NCBI GenBank assembly: GCA_000004985.1
Contig: GG738909.1
Length of the DNA stretch: 64,000 bases
DNA from: Naegleria gruberi
Taxonomy: Eukaryota
Strand: one strand, 5' to 3'
Below the pieces are notes generated by a model that was not told where the DNA came from, ran no database searches, and worked only from the letters and a program-made list of their open reading frames with translations. The position numbers and the translations under genes are program-made. Positions 10,654 to 49,066 of the stretch are shown one piece after another (positions within the stretch are counted from its first letter, which is position 1; the number at the start of each line of letters is the position of its first letter).

Positions 10654-12378
10654 ATGTTGCCTTCCTTGTCCGATTTATTTGGGCAAGATGATGGCAAAGA
10701 TGCCAACAAGATGCCTAAACAACAACAGCTTACTATTAGTAATCCATCATCAACCAACAACAACAGCATCAACAACAACATGATGTTTGTGGGGCAACAA
10801 CACCATCATGCAATATTGGCCAATTCCAATAATGGGCTGCAACAAGATATTGCTATGCATCATGTACATGGATCATCTAATGTGAATGCCTTTGATGAAG
10901 CATCTACATCTAAATTTCAGAATTCTGTTGCCAATTATCATCATCAGTTTGTTCCATCGACAAGAACGACATTGGATAGTGTGGGGAGAAGTAGTCAATC
11001 TTTCACTGCTGGTAGTAATAACAATAGTTCAAACTTAAAATCTAATCTTACACCAGCTTTGATACATGCAACATCATGTACTCCAAACATGATGTTTTCA
11101 AAAATAGTGAATAATAGTGGCATGCCAACATCTACATCATTGAGCATGCATGGATCGATGCATTCAACTCATCAACAACAAGTACATGAAATGTCTAAAA
11201 ACAACGATGCATGTTTGCATGTATTTGATACAAAAACAACACCACTACCTAACTTTAGTACTACAACTACCACCACAGCGAGCAATATAAATGGTAGTAA
11301 TCATAGCAATACTAATGGCAATCCACCACCCTCTTCATCTTTGAATTACAAAACACAAGATGCAATACTGCCCAACAATTTATCACCTCCAACAACAAAC
11401 TCTTCCCAACAAATGTACTTTTCTAATCCTATACAATATTCCCCTCAAGCTAACCAATTGCATGCATCCAATAATAATTTAAACAATAGAGGGCAAAATA
11501 ATGGAAATAATAATGATCAAACGGCAATGCATGATTATCAACCTTCTTCCTCTGCTTATATATATGAACGAAATTCACCAATATTGCTTCAAAACGAAGT
11601 TTATAATAATGGAAATGTATCTTCTTCATCATCTACTAATAATACTGCTAGGAACTCATCCACAAAATCAAATGTAAATGATACATCTACTAATGTGGTA
11701 AATACTTCTCAAAATGGATCATTTCCAAGTCGGTTTGAAAATTATCAACATCATGATTTACAATCATCCACACATCCGGTTATTAAGGAAAATCACCTTA
11801 ATACCATTTTTAATGGAATATTTTATGAGGATGCAGAAAATTCGAAACGGAAAATTGAGGATGCAAGTAATTCATCAAGAAAAAAGAGAAAGAATGAAAA
11901 CGAAACGAAACATTCAATTAACAATTCGGAATCATTCATTAATCCACCTTCAATAATTACCACACCTAAATCATTGAATCGCCAATCCAATACCACCAAT
12001 AGCTCTTCTAAGAAAACTAAATCAGAAATTAATAATACGAAACAGCCTCTCAAATCGCCCTCAGGTTTATCAGATAGTTCTACAAATTACGCGACACATA
12101 ATTCACTCTCGACAGTACCACAAAACTCGATTCAATTCATGAACTTCTCGATATCAGACAAATCGAAAATTAAATTTGTGAATGCTAGACATCAACAGAT
12201 AGGAATTAATGACGGTGCATGGACTGAAAAAGAGCATGCAGATTTTATGCGAGGACTAAACGAGTGTGGAAGAGGCAGATGGCGAGAGATTGCCGAAAAC
12301 TATGTTCTCACTAGAACGAGAACTCAGGTAGCCAGCCATGCCCGTAAATATCTAGAAACCCCACCCAATAAAAAGTAG
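10654..12378 (+). CDS. SHAQKYF-class Myb-domain transcription factor with a long Q/N/S-rich low-complexity N-terminal region
   Basis: 574-aa ORF. C-terminal WTEKEHADFMRGLNECGRGRWREIAENYVLTRTRTQVASHARKY matches the SHAQKYF/MYB-related single-repeat domain. The remainder is poly-N/Q/S. Confidence 0.8.
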   Translation: MLPSLSDLFGQDDGKDANKMPKQQQLTISNPSSTNNNSINNNMMFVGQQHHHAILANSNNGLQQDIAMHHVHGSSNVNAFDEASTSKFQNSVANYHHQFVPSTRTTLDSVGRSSQSFTAGSNNNSSNLKSNLTPALIHATSCTPNMMFSKIVNNSGMPTSTSLSMHGSMHSTHQQQVHEMSKNNDACLHVFDTKTTPLPNFSTTTTTTASNINGSNHSNTNGNPPPSSSLNYKTQDAILPNNLSPPTTNSSQQMYFSNPIQYSPQANQLHASNNNLNNRGQNNGNNNDQTAMHDYQPSSSAYIYERNSPILLQNEVYNNGNVSSSSSTNNTARNSSTKSNVNDTSTNVVNTSQNGSFPSRFENYQHHDLQSSTHPVIKENHLNTIFNGIFYEDAENSKRKIEDASNSSRKKRKNENETKHSINNSESFINPPSIITTPKSLNRQSNTTNSSSKKTKSEINNTKQPLKSPSGLSDSSTNYATHNSLSTVPQNSIQFMNFSISDKSKIKFVNARHQQIGINDGAWTEKEHADFMRGLNECGRGRWREIAENYVLTRTRTQVASHARKYLETPPNKK

Positions 12379-12572
12379 TTCCATAGTTGGAAATCATCCA
12401 ATTTGAGGAGGGTAACCAAACTTGCTTCATTACTATTAAGTTTCGTCTCATTTTCATGGATTTATGAATAGTATTCAATAGATTTTAGAAAAGATGTCGT
12501 TTACATGCACATTCTTTTTTAATTCAATTTATGCTTAACAAATTTGAACTCAATTTTTTAACTAAAAAAAAA

Positions 12573-13384
12573 ATGAGTTTTTCTTATGGACCTTACTATG
12601 CCGTTCACAGAGGAAGAAATCCTGGAGTCTATCTCAAATGGGATGACTGCAAGGAACAAGTACAGGGCTTCTCTGGTAATTGTTACAAGAAATTTTCATC
12701 CATAATATTTGCCGATTGGTTTGTTGAAGAAGGACCAAAGAAATTCAAAAAGAGAATTCGTTTCCATTCCAAAGATTGGGTTTCAAGTGGGAGTGAAGTT
12801 GAGGATTGTTACTATGATGATGATTTATCGGATGCTAATGATGATAGAGAAGTTTATGTTTGTGGAAAACAATTCCGAAAGAGAAGAAAGAATATTGGTG
12901 ATGAAGCGAATGATTGTAGTCATGCTCCTGTTTGTAGATATCATCTGGAGGGAAATTGTCGATTTGGAAGGAATTGCAGATTTTACCATCCTCCAAGAAG
13001 TGTTATCACAAGAATGAAAAGTAATAGTGAAGGAAATAGACATCATCCTAATGATGATCAATAAGCAATAATGAGAATCAAAAACAAAGTAGTAATAGTG
13101 TCGTTAATATTAACGTTAATAATTCTGCAACTTCAAATTCTACTACCACTTGTCCAGGAGCTAATCAAAATGCAAGTAGAAAAGTATGTAGATATTGGTC
13201 ACAAGGAAATTGCAGATTTGGAACGAATTGCTGGTTCTATCATCCAGCACCAGCAGCAATTTCATCATCATTACAAAATAATGTTACTGCTACTAATCCA
13301 TCGAATCAGCAGTCTAGTAATTCAGTAATTGTGAATTCTTCTGTGCCTGCTGAGCAAATTTATTATGATAGTAGTGATAGATGA
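12573..13384 (+). CDS. Protein with an RNase H1 N-terminal-like (caulimovirus ORF VI-like, dsRNA/hybrid-binding) domain followed by two CCCH zinc fingers. Two exons: 12573..13020 and 13158..13384.
   Basis: MSFSYGPYYAVHRGRNPGVYLKWDDCKEQVQGFSGNCYKKF matches the RNase H1 N-terminal domain consensus (YYAV..GR.pGIy..W.ec..qv.g...a.yKkF). First CCCH: CRYHLEGNCRFGRNCRFYH. The second CCCH (CRYWSQGNCRFGTNCWFYH) is in frame 2 with no start codon. A 137-nt intron joins them in phase, with donor AAAA|GTAATA at 13021 and acceptor CCACTTGTCCAG| at 13157. The stop TGA is at 13382-13384. Confidence 0.55.
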
Positions 13385-14358
13385 TGGAGATGATTACTAT
13401 GGTGGAAGCTCGTTTAATTATGGAATGAGTTTTAATGATCTAAATATGTTGTTGTCTTATGGAGTGAAACCGTGGGATGATGATGCTGATGATTTGCTTG
13501 ATTTTCTTCATGAAATGTAATTGAATCTTTGGAATTCCTTAAAGAAATTGGTGTAAAATCTCAACATTAAGATTTTGTTCTTTACATTTACAACTGTCAA
13601 AAATAATATTCAAATATCATTCTAATGATAATTAATTCTAGAATTGGCAACAAACAAATTTAGAGCGATATCAAATTCTTGCCAAAATTGGACGTATAAA
13701 GAAAGAATTATTAATTGAAGAAGAAATTTAAATGATTAATCTCTAATCTTGTCAATTTTCTGACCACAGTTTGTAAATTGTAAATAATTCGTGCTCACGT
13801 TTCGAATAACAATTTATCAAAACAAAATGGGTCAACGAAACACCAAGAAACCAGACACTCAAGAACCTGAAAATGAAACTGTATCCACTGACCTCATTGA
13901 TTGTGTAAATCTCATCATTAATGGTCAAGAATATGTCCTTATTGAAAACCATTGGGAAAACATTGAATTGAAACAAGATCCTTTATCTTATCTTTCACAG
14001 GAAGTGGAAAAATGCAAGCTATCCTCTTGGTAACACACAACGATGATTACTATTTCAAAAGCTTTAAGGCATTACTGCCATTTTGATTATCCTTTCAATT
14101 ATAGAGAACTCTCATTCGTATATTATCATTGAACAAAGAGGTCTCATCGAAGATTAATGTTGAAATCAAATTCCACACCTTAATATATCAATTATATCAA
14201 GAGAATCATCATCAGTACGGGTTGCGGTCATTTCGTCGAACAATTCACAGAGGAAGCACTTTCACACTTTCTCTTCTGCTGAACCAAATATAAAAAACTT
14301 CAAAATATTTGAATAATTTTTTAAAAATTTTAAGATTGAAAAAAAATTCATCATCACA

Positions 14359-15801
14359 ATGACCAAGAAGAACACATCATCATCAGCAAGCTCATCCGCA
14401 TCAAAGAAGAAATCAGGAGGTGGTGGTGACGATGATATGAAATTCCTCATGGAAATGCAAAAGAAGAATGAAAAGGAAACAGTCAAACAACAACAACAAT
14501 CGAATGGATCATCGAAAAAACAAACCACCAAACAACCAAAAGATTGGCCTTCCGAACAAACTCAACCAGAACCTACAGTCCCAATCAAGTATTTATTCAA
14601 GGATGAGAAATTCCCACAGGGTGAAATTTGTGAATTAGGAACCTATGATTATAAAACCAAGAGATTTCATCCTTCCGAATTGAAGGAAGGAGCACAAGAA
14701 AAGGATGAAAAATTACAAGAACGTCTCCAGGAGGCTAGACATGCTGCTGAAGTTCACAGAACTGCTAGAAAATGGTTCAAGACTATTGTTAAACCTGGAA
14801 TGAAAGTTATTGATGCTGCTGAAACTTATGAAAATAAGGTTAGAGAATTATTGGAAGCTGATAAGAAAAAGTCTGGACTTGCTTTCCCATTGGGTTGTTC
14901 ATTGAATCATGTTGCTGCTCACTATACACCAAATAGTGGAGATGAAACTGTTATTGGAAAGGATGATGTGATTAAATTCGATTTGGGAACTCATGTTAAT
15001 GGTACAATTATTGATTCTGCATTCACAATGTGTTGGAATGATCAATATCAACCATTATTGGATGCTGTCAAAGATGCCACTAATATGGGTGTTAAGGCTG
15101 CTGGTATTGATGTCAGATTAGGTGATGTTGGTGCTGCCATTCAAGAAGTTATGGAATCTTATGAAGTTGTATGTGTTATTTTGAATACTTTGATTTATTA
15201 ATATTTTTGGATTTCAATTATTTCAATTATTTCAATTATTTGAAATTCACAAATATTCAATTAATTTATTGAACAAATTAATAATGGAATATAATAGACA
15301 ATTAATGGAAAGACTCACAAGGTTAGAAGTATTGAAAATTTGTGTGGTCACTCTGTTGAAAGATATCGTGTCCATGCTGGTAAATCAGTTCCAATTGTTG
15401 CTACTGAAGAAAATACCAAGATGGAAGAAAATGAATTTTTCGCTATTGAAACTTTCGGTTCTACTGGTAAGGGTTACATCAATGAAGAAGGTGTCTGTTC
15501 ACATTATGGCAGAGAATACACATACAATGGTGATGGTTCTGAATTGAGAAATAAGGATTCTAAAGATTTACTCAAAGTTATCAATGAAAACTTTGGATCC
15601 ATTCCTTTCTGTCGTAGATACTTGGACAGAATTGGCCAAAAGAAATATCTTACTGCTCTTCGTGATTTGGTAAACAATGGTATTGTCAATGAATATCCAC
15701 CATTGGTTGATGTTAGAGGTTGTTACACTGCTCAATTCGAGCATACTATTTTCTTGAGACCAACCTGCAAGGAAGTTTTGAGTAGAGGATCCGACTATTA
15801 A
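14359..15801 (+). CDS. metap2: Methionine aminopeptidase 2 (MetAP2, peptidase M24 family). Two exons: 14359..15168 and 15298..15801.
   Basis: Lys/Ser-rich N-terminus followed by [28 protein letters not shown]...[13 protein letters not shown]...[17 protein letters not shown]. After a GTATGT...ATAG intron (15169..15297), the sequence continues [34 protein letters not shown]...[17 protein letters not shown]. It is collinear with human METAP2 ([39 protein letters not shown]). Confidence 0.9.
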
Positions 15802-16924
15802 ATGCATTTTACAAAAATCTCCTTTAAGAATATAATACAACAACACGACAACTGTAGTCGACATTTTTGACATGTCATGTAGTTCTGTAGTGGAACTATA
15901 TGATGGACTGTACGACTCATCAACTCTAGTTTCTAACACGAATCTGATGGATGCAAAAATGTCATTCAAAATAAATAATCCCAATTCCTTCCTCTAATTT
16001 CAACGATTCTACTTGCATTTCCTCCAATTCACTTGGAACTAAGGTGTAAACTCTCTAATTCCTAGGTTTAAATCCTTAAAGAAACTCTCAAAGTGAACAA
16101 CCTTTGGACATCCTTGGACATTTTTCGTTCTCTTTCCATCTTCACAACAATAACCACCACAATCCAATGGACATCCTCATGATATCCTCGTGCCATCAAG
16201 ATCGATCTCAGTAGTAGCACCAACGACGAATGAATCAATTAAAGAGATCAACTACGACACTTTAAAGCGATTTGTACGACCATTCAATGCGCTCAAAAAG
16301 CGTTGTTCTATGTTTTTTTTAATATGCAATAATCTGCTTAACAACGAACGTCCATTAATAAAGCGTTCTATTCATGCTTGGGGAATTTTCGCGCCCAGCG
16401 GCCCATAAATGAAAAAACTTTTCAAGTTTGAAATCTTTTCAAATATTATTGAAAAAAAACACACAACATTGATCACCTTCAAGTTCAAAGCACGTGAATT
16501 GCTGCTTACGAGAAGATTTTGAATCAAGTTTGAGATTCAATTAAAGATATCGAATTTTTTGAGTTTTGGATTGACTAATTTCAATTCATATACAAAATAG
16601 GTGAATTAACAATTCAGATTGTACAGCATAGAATCGAGTTTCAAATCCTAATATATAAAAAGAGCAATTTAATCATAGACTAATAACAATGATACCAACA
16701 TCCTCCTCCTCATTGCCGTCATCATCATTACTCTCAAAGATTACTCCACAACAGGAACAACAAATTGAGGATGGAGAAGAAGAATTAACTGAATACAATG
16801 CATTATCAATAACAAAACCTCATGATCATCATCAGCAGCAGCACACCAGCAGCATTCAGTTTCACCCTCAACTACCTCCACTTCTTCATCAGCATCAATA
16901 GATGAAAGTTATAAGTGCTACGAA

Positions 16925-26612: not shown

Positions 26613-28309
26613 ATGAACGACAAGACACTTGTGGGCAAACTCGACAAGTTAACCAACACACAACAATCTATTCAAGGTTTGTATTGGTGATGATAGCATG
26701 ATGATTCGAGCAAGAACGGAATGATTTATATATTTATAAAATGTATCAACAACAATATGTTTTTATGATAAATGATCAAATTGGTTGAAAATATAATGAT
26801 GAATAATGATGACAATAACAATAATTTGTGTTGGAATTTTGTACGGAATGTATTCATGTGATTACACTTGATCCAAAATATCATGTAATGAACACTTGTT
26901 TGAACAACAACAAATTAGCCTTGTCACTTTGGGTTATTTACCACGTCAAGAAGGCTCAAGAAATTGTTTCCATTTGGGCTAGAGAAGCTAAGAAGGCAGC
27001 ACCAAATAGAAAATTATGCTATTACTACTTGGCCAATGATGTTATTCAAAATTCGAGAAAAAAGACCAATGCTTTTGTTGAACAATTTCAAGCAGTGCTA
27101 CCAGGATCACTCCGAGATAACATCTCACTCATGACAGAGAAGGATCGTAAGTCCTTGCAACGTATTTTCAGTATTTTGGAGGAGAGAAAGATTTTCACAG
27201 CTGATTTTTCGAGTGAGTGCAAGAGTGTTATTGATGGATCGCTTGGAGGTTCATCATCTAATACTTCCTCTGATAATTCTCGTAGTAGTGGTAGTGGTAA
27301 AGAAAGATCATCCGAGTCAAATCCTCTTAAGAGAGAAAGACCAAGCAGTAGTAATACTTCGTCATCTTCCAATGATGCCTTGACATTACTTGCCAACACA
27401 AATTCTGTTGTTAAAAGTCTTGTACAATTCAATGAAATTGTTCAAGCTAATCGTGTCGATCAAAAAAATTTCACAGATAATGATAAACTTGTTCAAGAAT
27501 GTAAACAACGAGTATTGGATAGACATGAATTGAGAGAAGATCAATTGGGTAAGTACATTTGTGGAAATGTGGATATATTTCTGTACTTTGAAAAATCAAA
27601 AACTAACTCGATAATTTTCAAATTAAATTTTCATTCATCCATTAATATATTTTCATTATTTAATCACATTCATTAATAATTTAGCTCATTCAACACCTTT
27701 CACATTAAAACAATTACAAGGTGATGTTGAAGGAGTGCTCACAAAATGCTCTGATTATAAATTTGCGCTTGCAAAGGAAAATAACAAACGAAAGGAATAT
27801 ATGACAGCACTAGAACAAGAATTGAACGAACAGAGAAACTTGTTTAATCAGTATAATGACTTGATTAAAGTATGTAGAACATGCAATGTTTTTAAAACTA
27901 ATCTCTTAAAACCTTACTTAAGGAATGGAATGATAATTACCTTGTCGATTTGCAAAAAATCTCAACCTCTCTCGAAATTCATCTCAATAGCAAACAATTC
28001 AATGGTAATGATGACGATGTATTGACGGGAGGTAATCAAGATGATGGCGATATTGTTGTTCCAACTTATTCTGATGACTTTTTCAAAGTGGATGAAGATG
28101 AGGTAGAGCCATCAAATAAAAAGTTGAAAACAGAACCAAGTTATGACGAAGATAATGAAGATTTATTCACTGAAACTAAGCCTATTTCTACAACCAATAC
28201 ACTCAATTTGGTTAACTCTATATTGAGTGCATTAGGAAACAAGAATACCAGTGGTTCTCACCAACCATCAGAGGAGTATGAACCTAATGAATATCCACCA
28301 TTCGATTAA
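26613..28309 (+). CDS. Rtt103/RPRD1-like CID (RPR) domain protein, C-terminal-domain-interacting type. Four exons: 26613..26676, 26919..27548, 27721..27869, 27923..28309.
   Basis: Exon 1 is MNDKTLVGKLDKLTNTQQSIQ, then a GTTTGT...TTAG intron. Exon 2 begins ALSLWVIYHVKKAQEIVSIWAREAKKAAPNRKLCYYYLANDVIQNSRKKTNAFVEQFQ. It is collinear with human RPRD1B (QSVQTLSLWIIHH...LNLLYLANDVIQNSKRKGPEF). Introns GTAAGT...ACAAG and GTATGT...TTAAG join the downstream ORFs in phase. Total length is 1230 nt, 410 codons. Confidence 0.8.
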
Positions 28310-47952: not shown

Positions 47953-49066
47953 ATGCGCACGCAATATCTCATCTTGTTTTCAATCCTCTCACTTTTCCTT
48001 GCCTTGTTCTTCTATCAACAAGTACAAGAATCAAAAAAAACAACATCATCACTCGATTTTAAACAAGGAATGTCTTCAGCAACAACTTCTGGAAGAGGAT
48101 TAAAAGCCATTGTAGTAGGATCAACAGGTTTGGTCGGAAAGAACGTTGTCAGAGTCTTGTCTCAACAAAATCCTCAAGAATATGCCAAGATTGTGGCCAT
48201 TTCGAGAAGAAAGGACAATCCATTCAATTATGAAACAAGTGTTCCTATTGAACATATTACATTGGATAGTTTGGATAATTTGGATCAAATTTCTGATGTT
48301 TTTAATGAAGTAGAGTAAGTTTTTAGACGAATCATCATGAAATTAATATTTAAATAATCAATTTATTATAATTAATCAATTGATTGCTATTATCATGTAA
48401 TATTCGGAAATTATATTTATTTGGAATATAAACAGTGAAGCATATTGTTGCTTGGGAACAACTATCAAAAGAGTTGGAAATGATAAGCAAAAGTTTAGAC
48501 ACGTTGATTTTGATTATCCAGATTCATTTGCTAATTTGGTTTACAAATCATTCACCAATGCTGCTCAGAACACTTCCGAGAATTTGAAACAATTCTTCCT
48601 TGTCACTTCTACAGGAGCTGATAGCAGTTCAATGTTTTTCTACAATCAAGTGAAGGGAGATATTGAAAAGTCGGTTGCTCAAAAGCAATTGGATTATCAA
48701 CAATTTACTCAAGGAAAATCACTCAATCAATCTTCTTACTGTCACATTATCAAACCAGGTTTATTAATTGGAGAACGTGAAAATGATGAAAGATTTGGAG
48801 AAAAGGTTGCTCAAAATTTGAATAATTTATTATCGTGGGCACTTCCAAGAAGTGTGAGTGGAATTAAGGGAGAGGAAGTTGCCAAAGCAATGCTTCAAAT
48901 TGCTGCCACAACAAGACAACAAAAATTGGATCTTTTGAAGGAAAGAGATTCTCATTCATCTGTTGGAGGAGTGGATCAAGCAACTCGTTTCACAAATCGA
49001 ATCTTTGCTCATGGAAATGCAAATCTCAAAGATTATTCAGATGAGTATGATCTTACTCGTAAATAA
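47953..49066 (+). CDS. HTATIP2/TIP30-like NAD(P)-binding oxidoreductase. Two exons: 47953..48314 and 48436..49066.
   Basis: Rossmann motif AIVVGSTGLVGKNVVRVL. After the GTAAGT...AACAG intron: (D)EAYCCLGTTIKRVGNDKQKFRHVDFDY...FFLVTSTGADSSSMFFYNQVKGDIEKSV, collinear with human TIP30 ([23 protein letters not shown]...[28 protein letters not shown]). Confidence 0.75.

What the first reader, a model, noticed from the sequence alone, without database searches (positions are those of the whole stretch)
12573..13384. Unusual domain combination: RNase H1 N-terminal-like (Cauli_VI) nucleic-acid-binding module fused to tandem CCCH zinc fingers
The N-terminal 45 residues fit the small dsRNA/RNA-DNA hybrid-binding fold found at the N-terminus of eukaryotic RNase H1 and caulimovirus P6. 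No RNase H catalytic domain follows. Instead two C-x8-C-x5-C-x3-H fingers (RNA-binding, TTP/ZC3H-like) occur, the second reachable only through a 137-nt intron that I inferred from splice signals. A hybrid-binding plus CCCH protein could be a small RNA/R-loop-binding regulator. I have not seen this architecture described.
Basis: partly seen in the sequence, partly recalled or inferred. Interest (0 to 1): 0.5.

Follow-up and report, generated by a model that had tools for sequence, protein, structure and literature searches.

The report
Hybrid-binding plus CCCH gene, frameshifted here
The unusual protein design is real and is conserved in Naegleria and its relative Acrasis, but it comes from a single uninterrupted gene. 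The proposed intron is only a way round one of two small deletions that break the reading frame in this reference genome.

Summary
The window is Naegleria gruberi NEG-M.

**Confirmed**
- The ORF at 12573 starts with a genuine RNase H1-type hybrid-binding domain (HBD): PF01693, E=2e-17. An AlphaFold model of the orthologue P0001 superposes on human HBD 3BSU at 0.5 Å.
- No RNase H catalytic domain follows.
- Two CCCH fingers are present. Their spacing is C-x7-C-x5-C-x3-H, not C-x8.

**Not supported**
- The 137-nt intron. A 97.8%-identical metagenomic orthologue (L001/P0001, 316 aa), a 42%-identical one (P0002), an Acrasis kona protein and a metagenome protein all encode HBD, CCCH, CCCH and a C-terminal module in one uninterrupted ORF.
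- Against L001, the window lacks 1 nt at 13056/57 and 2 nt at 13380/81. This puts finger 2 out of frame and creates the TAA at 13062.
- The "intron" interval is open coding sequence in L001. It has 30% GC and a GTAATA donor. Real introns in this window have GTAAGT or GTATGT donors and 14–21% GC.

- A conserved C-terminal helical hairpin (LLSYGVKPWDDDA…, 13380–13517). The same module occurs in fungal TPR/ankyrin-CCCH proteins and in tiny algal proteins, and no Pfam family covers it.

**Other points**
- The annotated model EFC38240 wrongly fuses the gene to the upstream Myb gene.
- The likely role is a non-catalytic reader of duplex plus single-stranded RNA. This is inferred, not shown.

The parts
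12573..13064 (+). First open segment of the gene in the NEG-M reference. It runs from the ATG at 12573 to a premature TAA at 13062-13064 and gives a 163-aa product with the HBD, an acidic linker and finger 1.
   Evidence: Residues 1-161 are collinear with orthologue P0001.
12591..12728 (+). Hybrid-binding domain (RNase H1 N-terminal / Cauli_VI fold), residues about 7-52. The equivalents of human W43, F58, K59 and K60 are kept as W23, Y38, K39 and K40.
   Evidence: Pfam PF01693 E=2.4e-17. Sequence matches to 1QHK and 3BSU. Model against 3BSU gives TM 0.95, rmsd 0.5 Å. Binding residues are taken from PMC6846478.
12933..12989 (+). CCCH zinc finger 1, CRYHLEGNCRFGRNCRFYH (C-x7-C-x5-C-x3-H).
   Evidence: Sequence. 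Pfam zf-CCCH_4 and zf-CCCH above cut-off.
13021..13157 (+). In the orthologue this is part of the N/S-rich coding linker between the two fingers, so it is not an intron.
   Evidence: The matching L001 interval is open and in frame, and only 1.4% of shuffles are stop-free. GC is 30% against 14% in the MetAP2 intron. The donor is GTAATA.
13056..13057 (+). Frameshift site 1. One nucleotide is missing relative to L001 (GATG[C]ATC). This creates the TAA at 13062 and moves the downstream coding sequence into another frame.
   Evidence: Pairwise alignment of L001 and the window.
13058..13384 (+). Middle segment, open only in the shifted frame. It holds the N/S-rich linker, finger 2 and an S/N-rich linker, and ends at a TGA at 13382-13384.
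13187..13243 (+). CCCH zinc finger 2, CRYWSQGNCRFGTNCWFYH (C-x7-C-x5-C-x3-H), out of frame with the start codon in this reference.
   Evidence: Sequence. Pfam zf-CCCH_4 and zf-CCCH above cut-off (protein 3).
13380..13381 (+). Frameshift site 2. Two nucleotides are missing relative to L001 (GATAG[TG]ATG). This returns the coding sequence to the frame of the start codon.
13380..13520 (+). Conserved C-terminal module plus stop: an acidic run, then FNYGMSFNDLNMLLSYGVKPWDDDADDLLDFLHEM and TAA. It is predicted to form a helix-loop-helix hairpin.
   Evidence: The last 22 residues are identical in P0002, which is only 42% identical overall. There is 87% DNA identity to L002 over 84 nt. The AlphaFold model has pLDDT about 90. 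Profile searches recover the module in other proteins.
12375..12610 (+). The 'intron' of the public gene model EFC38240.1 / NAEGRDRAFT_53145. It fuses the upstream Myb-like ORF (10654-12375) to this gene and removes the first beta-strand of the HBD. It is very probably an annotation artefact.
   Evidence: Sequence of P0009. In orthologue loci L002 and L003 the upstream neighbour is a different gene, followed by a stop codon and a 103-nt spacer. Pfam places HBD profile position 1 at residue 7.

Best explanation
**What the locus is**
The locus is the Naegleria gruberi copy of a small, intronless gene conserved in Heterolobosea. Its full product is about 316 aa and has four ordered parts joined by disordered acidic or N/S-rich linkers:
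- an N-terminal RNase H1-type hybrid-binding domain with no nuclease domain;
- a first C-x7-C-x5-C-x3-H zinc finger;
- a second finger of the same spacing;
- a short, highly conserved C-terminal helical hairpin (…LLSYGVKPWDDDAxxLLxxL).

**State in this reference**
In the NEG-M reference the frame is broken twice relative to the intact orthologue: by -1 nt at 13056/57 and by -2 nt at 13380/81. As written, the sequence encodes only a 163-aa protein with the HBD and finger 1. Finger 2 is out of frame. The C-terminal module is back in frame but lies beyond a stop codon. Neither is a real gene structure.

**Mechanism (inferred, not shown)**
The intact protein is probably a non-catalytic nucleic-acid reader.
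- The HBD docks across the minor groove of an RNA:DNA hybrid or of dsRNA. It would use the conserved Trp and Tyr-Lys-Lys surface.
- The two flexibly tethered CCCH fingers hold adjacent single-stranded RNA.
- The acidic C-terminal hairpin recruits a protein partner or mediates self-association.
For: **Organism and annotation**
- Four window ORFs are identical to N. gruberi proteins EFC38242, EFC38243, EFC38246 and EFC38285.
- The annotated model is P0009 = EFC38240.1.

**Domains**
- Pfam finds PF01693 at E=2.4e-17 and two zf-CCCH fingers.
- The HBD matches 1QHK and 3BSU by sequence.
- The HBD part of the P0001 model superposes on 3BSU with TM 0.95, rmsd 0.5 Å and 42% identity.
- In the full P0001 model the HBD and the C-terminal hairpin have pLDDT above 90, the fingers about 80, and the linkers below 50.

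**Single-ORF orthologues**
- P0001: 316 aa, in synteny with MetAP2, 97.8% DNA identity.
- P0002: 320 aa.
- Acrasis kona P0030: 549-nt single exon.
- P0016: 531-nt single exon.

**Frameshifts**
- The two coding-region indels are at 13056/57 and 13380/81. The other 13 gap openings in the 3.9-kb alignment all lie outside coding sequence.
- tblastn shows frames 3, 2 and 3 for the three gene segments.

**Against the intron**
- The stop-free interval in L001 is matched by only 1.4% of shuffles, and its GC is 30%.
- Real introns in the window have GTAAGT/GTATGT donors and 14-21% GC.

**Binding residues**
- W43, K59 and K60 form the HBD binding surface in human RNase H1 (PMC6846478). Hybrid recognition uses backbone contacts to 2'-OH groups plus aromatic stacking on deoxyriboses (PMC4132731).
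- The equivalents W, Y, K and K are present in the window protein (alignment).
Against: - No transcript or read data could be consulted. Splicing in NEG-M cannot be excluded outright, and the GT…AG pair does exist. Removing it would give a finger spacing of 20 residues, close to the 10-12 residues of the compact relatives P0016 and P0030.
- Whether the two deletions are real mutations or consensus errors of the 2010 Sanger assembly is undecided. My estimate is roughly 2:1 in favour of real.
- The functional mechanism rests only on domain homology. No member of this family has been studied.
- HBDs also bind dsRNA, so a preference for hybrids is assumed rather than shown.
- The role of the C-terminal hairpin is unknown.
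Confidence: 0.75

Rival explanations
1. The reference sequence is wrong at both sites because of consensus errors. Under this reading NEG-M really carries an intact, intronless 316-aa gene like L001.
For: - The two deletions sum to -3. The N-terminal part and the perfectly conserved C-terminal module therefore sit in the same frame.
- Downstream sequence shows no extra decay: 6 substitutions in 464 nt after site 1 against 5 in 484 nt before it. Finger 2 and the C-terminal module are unchanged at the protein level except for N280S.
Against: - Neither site is a homopolymer (GATG[C]ATC and GATAG[TG]ATG).
- Two consensus errors within 325 nt of an 8x Sanger assembly would be unusual. This rests on my own knowledge of such assemblies.
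- Every other indel against L001 falls in non-coding DNA, which is what real divergence looks like.
Confidence: 0.3
2. The gene has a 137-nt intron (13021-13157) that joins finger 1 to finger 2, and the 224-aa protein ends at 13384.
For: - A canonical GT…AG pair exists, and splicing gives an open frame carrying both fingers.
- The same sites exist in L001, where the interval would be 138 nt and therefore in frame.
Against: - The interval is coding and open in L001 (1.4% of shuffles) and has coding-like GC.
- The donor GTAATA differs from GTAAGT/GTATGT in three real-looking introns of the window.
- All four intact relatives are intronless.
- The model would discard the most conserved part of the family, the C-terminal module.
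- The public model, built by JGI, stops at 13062.
Confidence: 0.05
3. The public annotation is right. The HBD/CCCH sequence is the C-terminal part of a 724-aa Myb-like protein (EFC38240.1).
For: The model exists in NCBI and UniProt. A GT…AG pair at 12375-12610 joins the frames.
Against: - The splice removes the first 13 residues, including the conserved YYAV strand. All HBDs of the family begin there, right after the start codon.
- The window has its own ATG after an A-run, just as in L001 and L002.
- In L002 and L003 the upstream neighbour is an unrelated gene with a stop codon and a 103-nt spacer.
Confidence: 0.03
4. The frame changes are decoded by programmed ribosomal frameshifting or by insertional RNA editing.
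For: The only support is that the net shift is zero and the C-terminal module is back in frame.
Against: - There is no slippery heptamer at either site.
- The shift needed at site 1 is -1 (or +2), within 5 nt of a stop.
- The shifted frame itself has TGA codons at 13052 and 13055.
- No such mechanism is known for Naegleria nuclear genes (own knowledge).
Confidence: 0.01

Closest known systems
Eukaryotic RNase H1 (for example human RNASEH1, yeast Rnh1)
   Same: The N-terminal hybrid-binding domain has the same fold and about 42-48% identity. The Trp and (Phe/Tyr)-Lys-Lys binding surface is conserved.
   Different: There is no RNase H catalytic domain anywhere in the gene. Two CCCH fingers and a C-terminal hairpin take its place. 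The database name 'ribonuclease H' given to the Acrasis orthologue is therefore misleading.
Stand-alone or non-catalytic HBD proteins: caulimovirus P6/viroplasmin, and bacterial and eukaryotic 'viroplasmin family' mini-proteins
   Same: They use the HBD as a nucleic-acid-binding module without nuclease activity. Relatives P0069 and P0100 are an HBD plus the C-terminal hairpin only.
   Different: Apart from the HBD there is no similarity to P6. None of 37 HBD loci in viral contigs carries a CCCH finger or the C-terminal motif.
Tandem CCCH RNA-binding proteins (TTP/ZFP36, MBNL, CPSF30)
   Same: Two CCCH fingers of the ssRNA-binding type are present. The closest solved fingers by sequence are MBNL1 and MBNL2, and by fold CPSF30 and MBNL1.
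   Different: - The spacing is C-x7-C-x5-C-x3-H, not the C-x8 of TTP.
- The linker is a disordered 66 residues, not a fixed 18-residue one.
- There is no YKTEL lead-in.
Fungal TPR-CCCH and ankyrin-CCCH proteins (Rhodofomes, Plicaturopsis, Auricularia, Boletus, Basidiobolus), all uncharacterised
   Same: They have two CCCH fingers followed by an acidic stretch and the same C-terminal …GFxxxExxxLLxQGVKPWDDDAWDVL hairpin.
   Different: Their N-terminal module is TPR or ankyrin repeats rather than an HBD.

Membership tests
PF01693 Cauli_VI / RNase H1 hybrid-binding domain | Profile match above the curated gathering score | tested here: met
   63.3 bits against a cut-off of 21, E=2.4e-17, residues 7-45, profile positions 1-39 of 44.
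PF01693 Cauli_VI / RNase H1 hybrid-binding domain | Small beta-beta-alpha-beta-alpha fold superposable on a solved HBD | tested here: met
   The AlphaFold model of orthologue P0001 (pLDDT above 90 over residues 8-60) matches 3BSU with TM 0.95 and rmsd 0.5 Å.
PF01693 Cauli_VI / RNase H1 hybrid-binding domain | Nucleic-acid contact residues (human W43, F58, K59, K60) | tested here: met
   W23, Y38, K39 and K40 align with them. The residue roles come from PMC6846478. Binding itself was not tested.
RNase H1 (type 1 ribonuclease H) | RNase H catalytic domain (PF00075) with the DEDD active site | tested here: not met
   No PF00075 or PF13456 hit in any reading of the locus or in the orthologues.
CCCH zinc finger (PF00642 / PF18044) | C-x7-8-C-x5-C-x3-H spacing and a profile match above cut-off, present twice | tested here: met
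   Both fingers are C-x7-C-x5-C-x3-H. For each finger zf-CCCH_4 scores 28.4 or 27.6 bits (cut-off 24.6) and zf-CCCH scores 26 or 25 bits (cut-off 20.5). In this reference, finger 2 is out of frame with the start codon.
TTP/TIS11 tandem zinc-finger family | Two C-x8-C-x5-C-x3-H fingers 18 residues apart, each with an (R/K)YKTEL lead-in | tested here: not met
   The spacing is x7, the linker is 66 residues in P0001, and there is no YKTEL. The family definition is from my own knowledge.
Spliceosomal intron at 13021-13157 | GT…AG borders | tested here: met
   GT at 13021-22 and AG at 13156-57.
Spliceosomal intron at 13021-13157 | Donor consensus, low GC and non-coding character like the genome's real introns, and presence in orthologues | tested here: not met
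   - The donor is GTAATA against GTAAGT/GTATGT.
- GC is 30% against 14-21%.
- The interval is open and in frame in L001 (1.4% of shuffles).
- All four intact orthologues are intronless.
Spliceosomal intron at 13021-13157 | Spliced junction seen in transcripts | not testable with these tools
   No RNA-seq or EST data could be accessed.

The most novel reading that the evidence does not exclude
HBD-CCCH-CCCH-hairpin proteins are a dedicated class of non-enzymatic readers for R-loops or for dsRNA-ssRNA junctions, specific to Heterolobosea. Their C-terminal 'GVKPWDDDA' hairpin is an undescribed, widely distributed eukaryotic protein-interaction mini-domain. It is also found on fungal TPR/ankyrin-CCCH proteins and as free 60-90-aa proteins in green algae. 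Through it, RNA-bound CCCH proteins would couple to a common, still unknown partner.
Probability: 0.2. Interest if true: 0.6.

Novelty: new variant of a known kind. Interest (0 to 1): 0.35.

Why it matters
- **A natural R-loop probe.** HBDs are widely used as engineered R-loop probes. A natural protein that joins an HBD to ssRNA-binding CCCH fingers, with no nuclease, would be a ready-made candidate reader of R-loops or dsRNA junctions. It occurs in a deep-branching eukaryotic lineage.
- **A new module.** The conserved C-terminal hairpin is a separate, apparently unnamed module shared across Heterolobosea, fungi and green algae. It could point to a common partner of CCCH proteins.
- **Annotation.** The public model of this N. 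gruberi locus is wrong: it carries a false Myb fusion and stops at a premature stop codon. The reference also has two frame-breaking deletions that should be re-checked.
- **Limits.** The family is small and unstudied, and this copy may be a pseudogene. The immediate significance is therefore modest.

Tried and rejected
- **Exact look-ups.** The 163-aa and 177-aa window ORF products were looked up to find an independent NEG-M sequence of the locus. Neither is on record.
- **JGI metagenome scan with P0001.** It returned only one locus with an HBD alone (L004), so no further close relatives were found.
- **Viral contigs with the family profile.** Of 37 HBD loci, none carries a CCCH finger or the C-terminal motif, so there is no sign of a giant-virus origin.
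- **Paralogues.** None in the window.
- **C-terminal module.** No PDB match by sequence or by Foldseek. No Pfam match at threshold, only a sub-threshold similarity to DUF6698. The afdb50 library was unavailable.
- **Literature.** Searches for the architecture, the locus identifiers and the motif strings found nothing relevant.
- **Programmed frameshifting or editing.** Rejected for lack of slippery sites, and because the shifted frame has stop codons just upstream of site 1.
- **A tiny intron to bridge site 2.** Rejected, because the only GT…AG pair there spans about 10 nt.

Full report
**Source.** Four long ORFs of the window are identical to Naegleria gruberi proteins EFC38242, EFC38243, EFC38246 and EFC38285 on a 250,472-bp scaffold. 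The window is therefore from the N. gruberi NEG-M reference genome. It is AT-rich (about 34% GC), gene-dense and intron-poor.

**What is in the sequence.** An ATG at 12573, preceded by an A-run, opens a 163-codon ORF that ends at a TAA at 13062-13064.
- Residues 7-45 match PF01693 (RNase H1 N-terminal / Cauli_VI) at E=2.4e-17, 63 bits against a cut-off of 21.
- Residues 121-139 form a CCCH finger, CRYHLEGNCRFGRNCRFYH.
- A second finger, CRYWSQGNCRFGTNCWFYH, lies at 13187-13243 in a different reading frame.
- Both fingers pass the Pfam cut-offs for zf-CCCH and zf-CCCH_4.
- No RNase H catalytic domain is detected.
- By sequence, the N-terminal domain matches the solved yeast RNase H1 N-domain (1QHK, 5e-9) and the human hybrid-binding domain (3BSU, 3e-6).
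- The human residues that form the binding surface (Trp43, Lys59, Lys60, with Phe58; PMC6846478) align with W23, K39, K40 and Y38.

**The intron.** A protein search found two relatives.
- P0001 (316 aa) lies on a 3,853-bp metagenome contig (L001). The contig is collinear with window 12539-16424 at 97.8% DNA identity and includes the downstream MetAP2 gene.
- P0002 (320 aa, 42% identity) lies on two short contigs.
- Both are single uninterrupted ORFs with the order HBD, acidic linker, finger 1, N/S-rich linker, finger 2, S/N-rich and acidic linker, then an identical C-terminal peptide LLSYGVKPWDDDADDLLDFLHEM.

A base-by-base comparison of L001 and the window shows 15 gap openings.
- Thirteen lie in intergenic or intronic DNA.
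- Two lie in this coding region: one nucleotide missing between 13056 and 13057 (GATG[C]ATC), and two missing between 13380 and 13381 (GATAG[TG]ATG).
- The first deletion creates the TAA at 13062 and shifts finger 2 out of frame.
- The second returns the sequence to the frame of the start codon. The C-terminal 46 residues (13380-13517, TAA at 13518) are therefore in frame with the N-terminus but lie beyond the stop.

- In L001 the same interval is open and in frame. Only 1.4% of composition-matched shuffles are stop-free.
- Its GC (30%) is close to that of the flanking coding sequence (35-37%). The MetAP2 intron has 14% GC and the intergenic DNA 25-26%.
- Its donor is GTAATA. The three real-looking introns I could find in the window start with GTATGT or GTAAGT and have 14-21% GC.
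- The two more distant members of the family are also encoded by single exons. These are Acrasis kona KAL0482325.1 and a JGI metagenome protein.

I conclude that the intron is an artefact of bridging a frameshift. I cannot exclude it absolutely, because no transcript data were available.

**The public model.** The annotated protein for this locus is EFC38240.1 / XP_002670984.1 / D2VY09, NAEGRDRAFT_53145, 724 aa.
- It joins the upstream Myb-like ORF (10654-12375) to "GRNPGVYLKW…" through a 236-nt intron (12375-12610), and it stops at the 13062 TAA.
- That splice removes MSFSYGPYYAVHR, the first strand of the HBD. In every relative this strand starts right after the initiator Met.
- In the P0002 loci the upstream neighbour is an unrelated repeat protein, followed by a stop codon and a 103-nt A-rich spacer.

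The fusion is therefore very probably wrong as well.

**Real mutation or assembly error?** This cannot be settled with the data reachable here.
- No second NEG-M-derived sequence of the locus is on record. P0001's 90% cluster has a single member.
- For real mutations: neither site is a homopolymer, and all other indels look like ordinary divergence.
- For errors: the two deletions sum to -3, and the downstream sequence shows no extra decay. Finger 2 is unchanged at the protein level, and the C-terminal region shows only one conservative change, N280S.
- My estimate is about 65% for a real truncated allele or young pseudogene, possibly one allele only. I give about 30% for a reference error and the rest for other explanations.

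**The family.** An exhaustive phmmer search of 1.84 billion representatives with P0001 gave 3,037 hits.
- Almost all are proteins with an HBD only or with CCCH fingers only.
- Among the best 150 plus the earlier hits, six carry both an HBD and a CCCH finger.
- Four of the six have the full architecture: P0001, P0002, P0016 (176 aa) and P0030 (Acrasis kona, 182 aa, auto-named "ribonuclease H").
- The other two are the mis-fused N. gruberi model P0009 and P0020, which has the order CCCH-HBD-CCCH.
- P0069 and P0100 have an HBD plus the C-terminal motif and no fingers.
- A profile search of 5.8 billion proteins returned the same four full members. The next hits are ordinary RNase H1 enzymes.
- Only the best 150 of the 3,037 hits could be inspected, so these counts are lower bounds.

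The architecture is rare, and so far it is seen in Heterolobosea and a few metagenomic eukaryotes. Viral contigs hold many HBD genes, but none has fingers or the motif.

**The third module.** The C-terminal peptide is the best-conserved part of the family.
- It shows 87% DNA identity between the window and L002 over 84 nt.
- The same module, consensus …(N)MGF(T/S)xxE(L/V)xxLL(C/S)(Q/Y)G(V/I)KPWDDDAWDVLxAL, ends several other protein types. These are basidiomycete TPR plus 2xCCCH proteins, a Basidiobolus ankyrin plus 2xCCCH protein, and a 3xCCCH protein.
- It also occurs as free-standing 58-90-aa proteins in Edaphochlamys and Gonium.
- It has no Pfam match at threshold. There is only a sub-threshold similarity to the N-terminal part of DUF6698.
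- It has no PDB relative by sequence or by fold, and no literature hit.
- AlphaFold predicts a helix-loop-helix hairpin with pLDDT about 90, both alone and within the full-length model.

**How it probably works.**
- Shown: the domain identities, their order, the conservation of the HBD contact residues, and the disorder of the linkers.
- From established knowledge: HBDs bind RNA:DNA hybrids through backbone contacts to 2'-OH groups and aromatic stacking on deoxyriboses (PMC4132731). They also bind dsRNA, less well (own knowledge). CCCH fingers of this type bind single-stranded RNA.
- Inferred: the intact protein is a non-catalytic reader. It anchors on a duplex (an R-loop hybrid or dsRNA) and holds adjacent single-stranded RNA. 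The acidic C-terminal hairpin serves as a protein-interaction handle.
- As written in NEG-M, only the HBD plus finger 1 would be made.

**Comparison and verdict.**
- It is not an RNase H1, because the catalytic domain was tested for and is absent.
- It is not a TTP-type tandem finger protein, because the spacing, the linker and the lead-in all fail.
- It is a new, apparently undescribed arrangement of known modules plus one unnamed module. It is already present in public databases but unrecognised there.
- Interest is moderate to low: a small, unstudied lineage-restricted family whose copy here is broken.

Noticed in passing
window 13380-13517; also P0136, P0094, P0163, P0174, P0179, P0181-P0202: A conserved C-terminal mini-domain (…GFxxxExxxLLxQGVKPWDDDAWDVLxAL), predicted to be a helical hairpin. 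It is shared by heterolobosean HBD proteins and by fungal TPR- and ankyrin-CCCH proteins, and it stands alone in 58-90-aa proteins of Chlamydomonadales. No Pfam, PDB or literature match was found, only a sub-threshold similarity to the N-terminal part of DUF6698.
   Followed up: partly
window 10654-13064: The public N. gruberi model EFC38240.1 / NAEGRDRAFT_53145 (724 aa) fuses a Myb/SHAQKYF-like gene to the HBD-CCCH gene through a 236-nt 'intron' (12375-12610) that cuts off the first HBD strand. This is probably a mis-annotation.
   Followed up: yes
window 14359-15900: A methionine aminopeptidase 2 gene (Peptidase_M24) with one intron of about 128 nt starting at 15169-15172 (GTATGT…ATAATAG, 14% GC). 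Its exons have no indels against L001.
   Followed up: partly
window 13828-14045: A small ORF (MGQRNTKKPD…, about 68 aa) between the HBD gene and MetAP2. L001 lacks 20 nt (14026-14045) at its 3' end. It has no Pfam hit on record in L001, and its function is unknown.
   Followed up: no
window 27549-27684 and 48315-48435: Two further candidate introns with GTAAGT donors, TTTAG or AACAG acceptors and 18-21% GC. They were used only as a baseline for intron features.
   Followed up: no
L002 3-515; L003 3-425: In the P0002 species the upstream neighbour of the orthologue is a protein made of repeats (…SLQSDREIVLEAVKQN…) instead of the Myb gene. Synteny upstream is therefore not conserved.
   Followed up: no
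L006 (JGI 3300062135, 41-kb contig): The compact family member P0016 sits next to a gene resembling a bacterial alpha-L-rhamnosidase, on a densely packed contig of unknown organism. The contig's origin was not determined.
   Followed up: no
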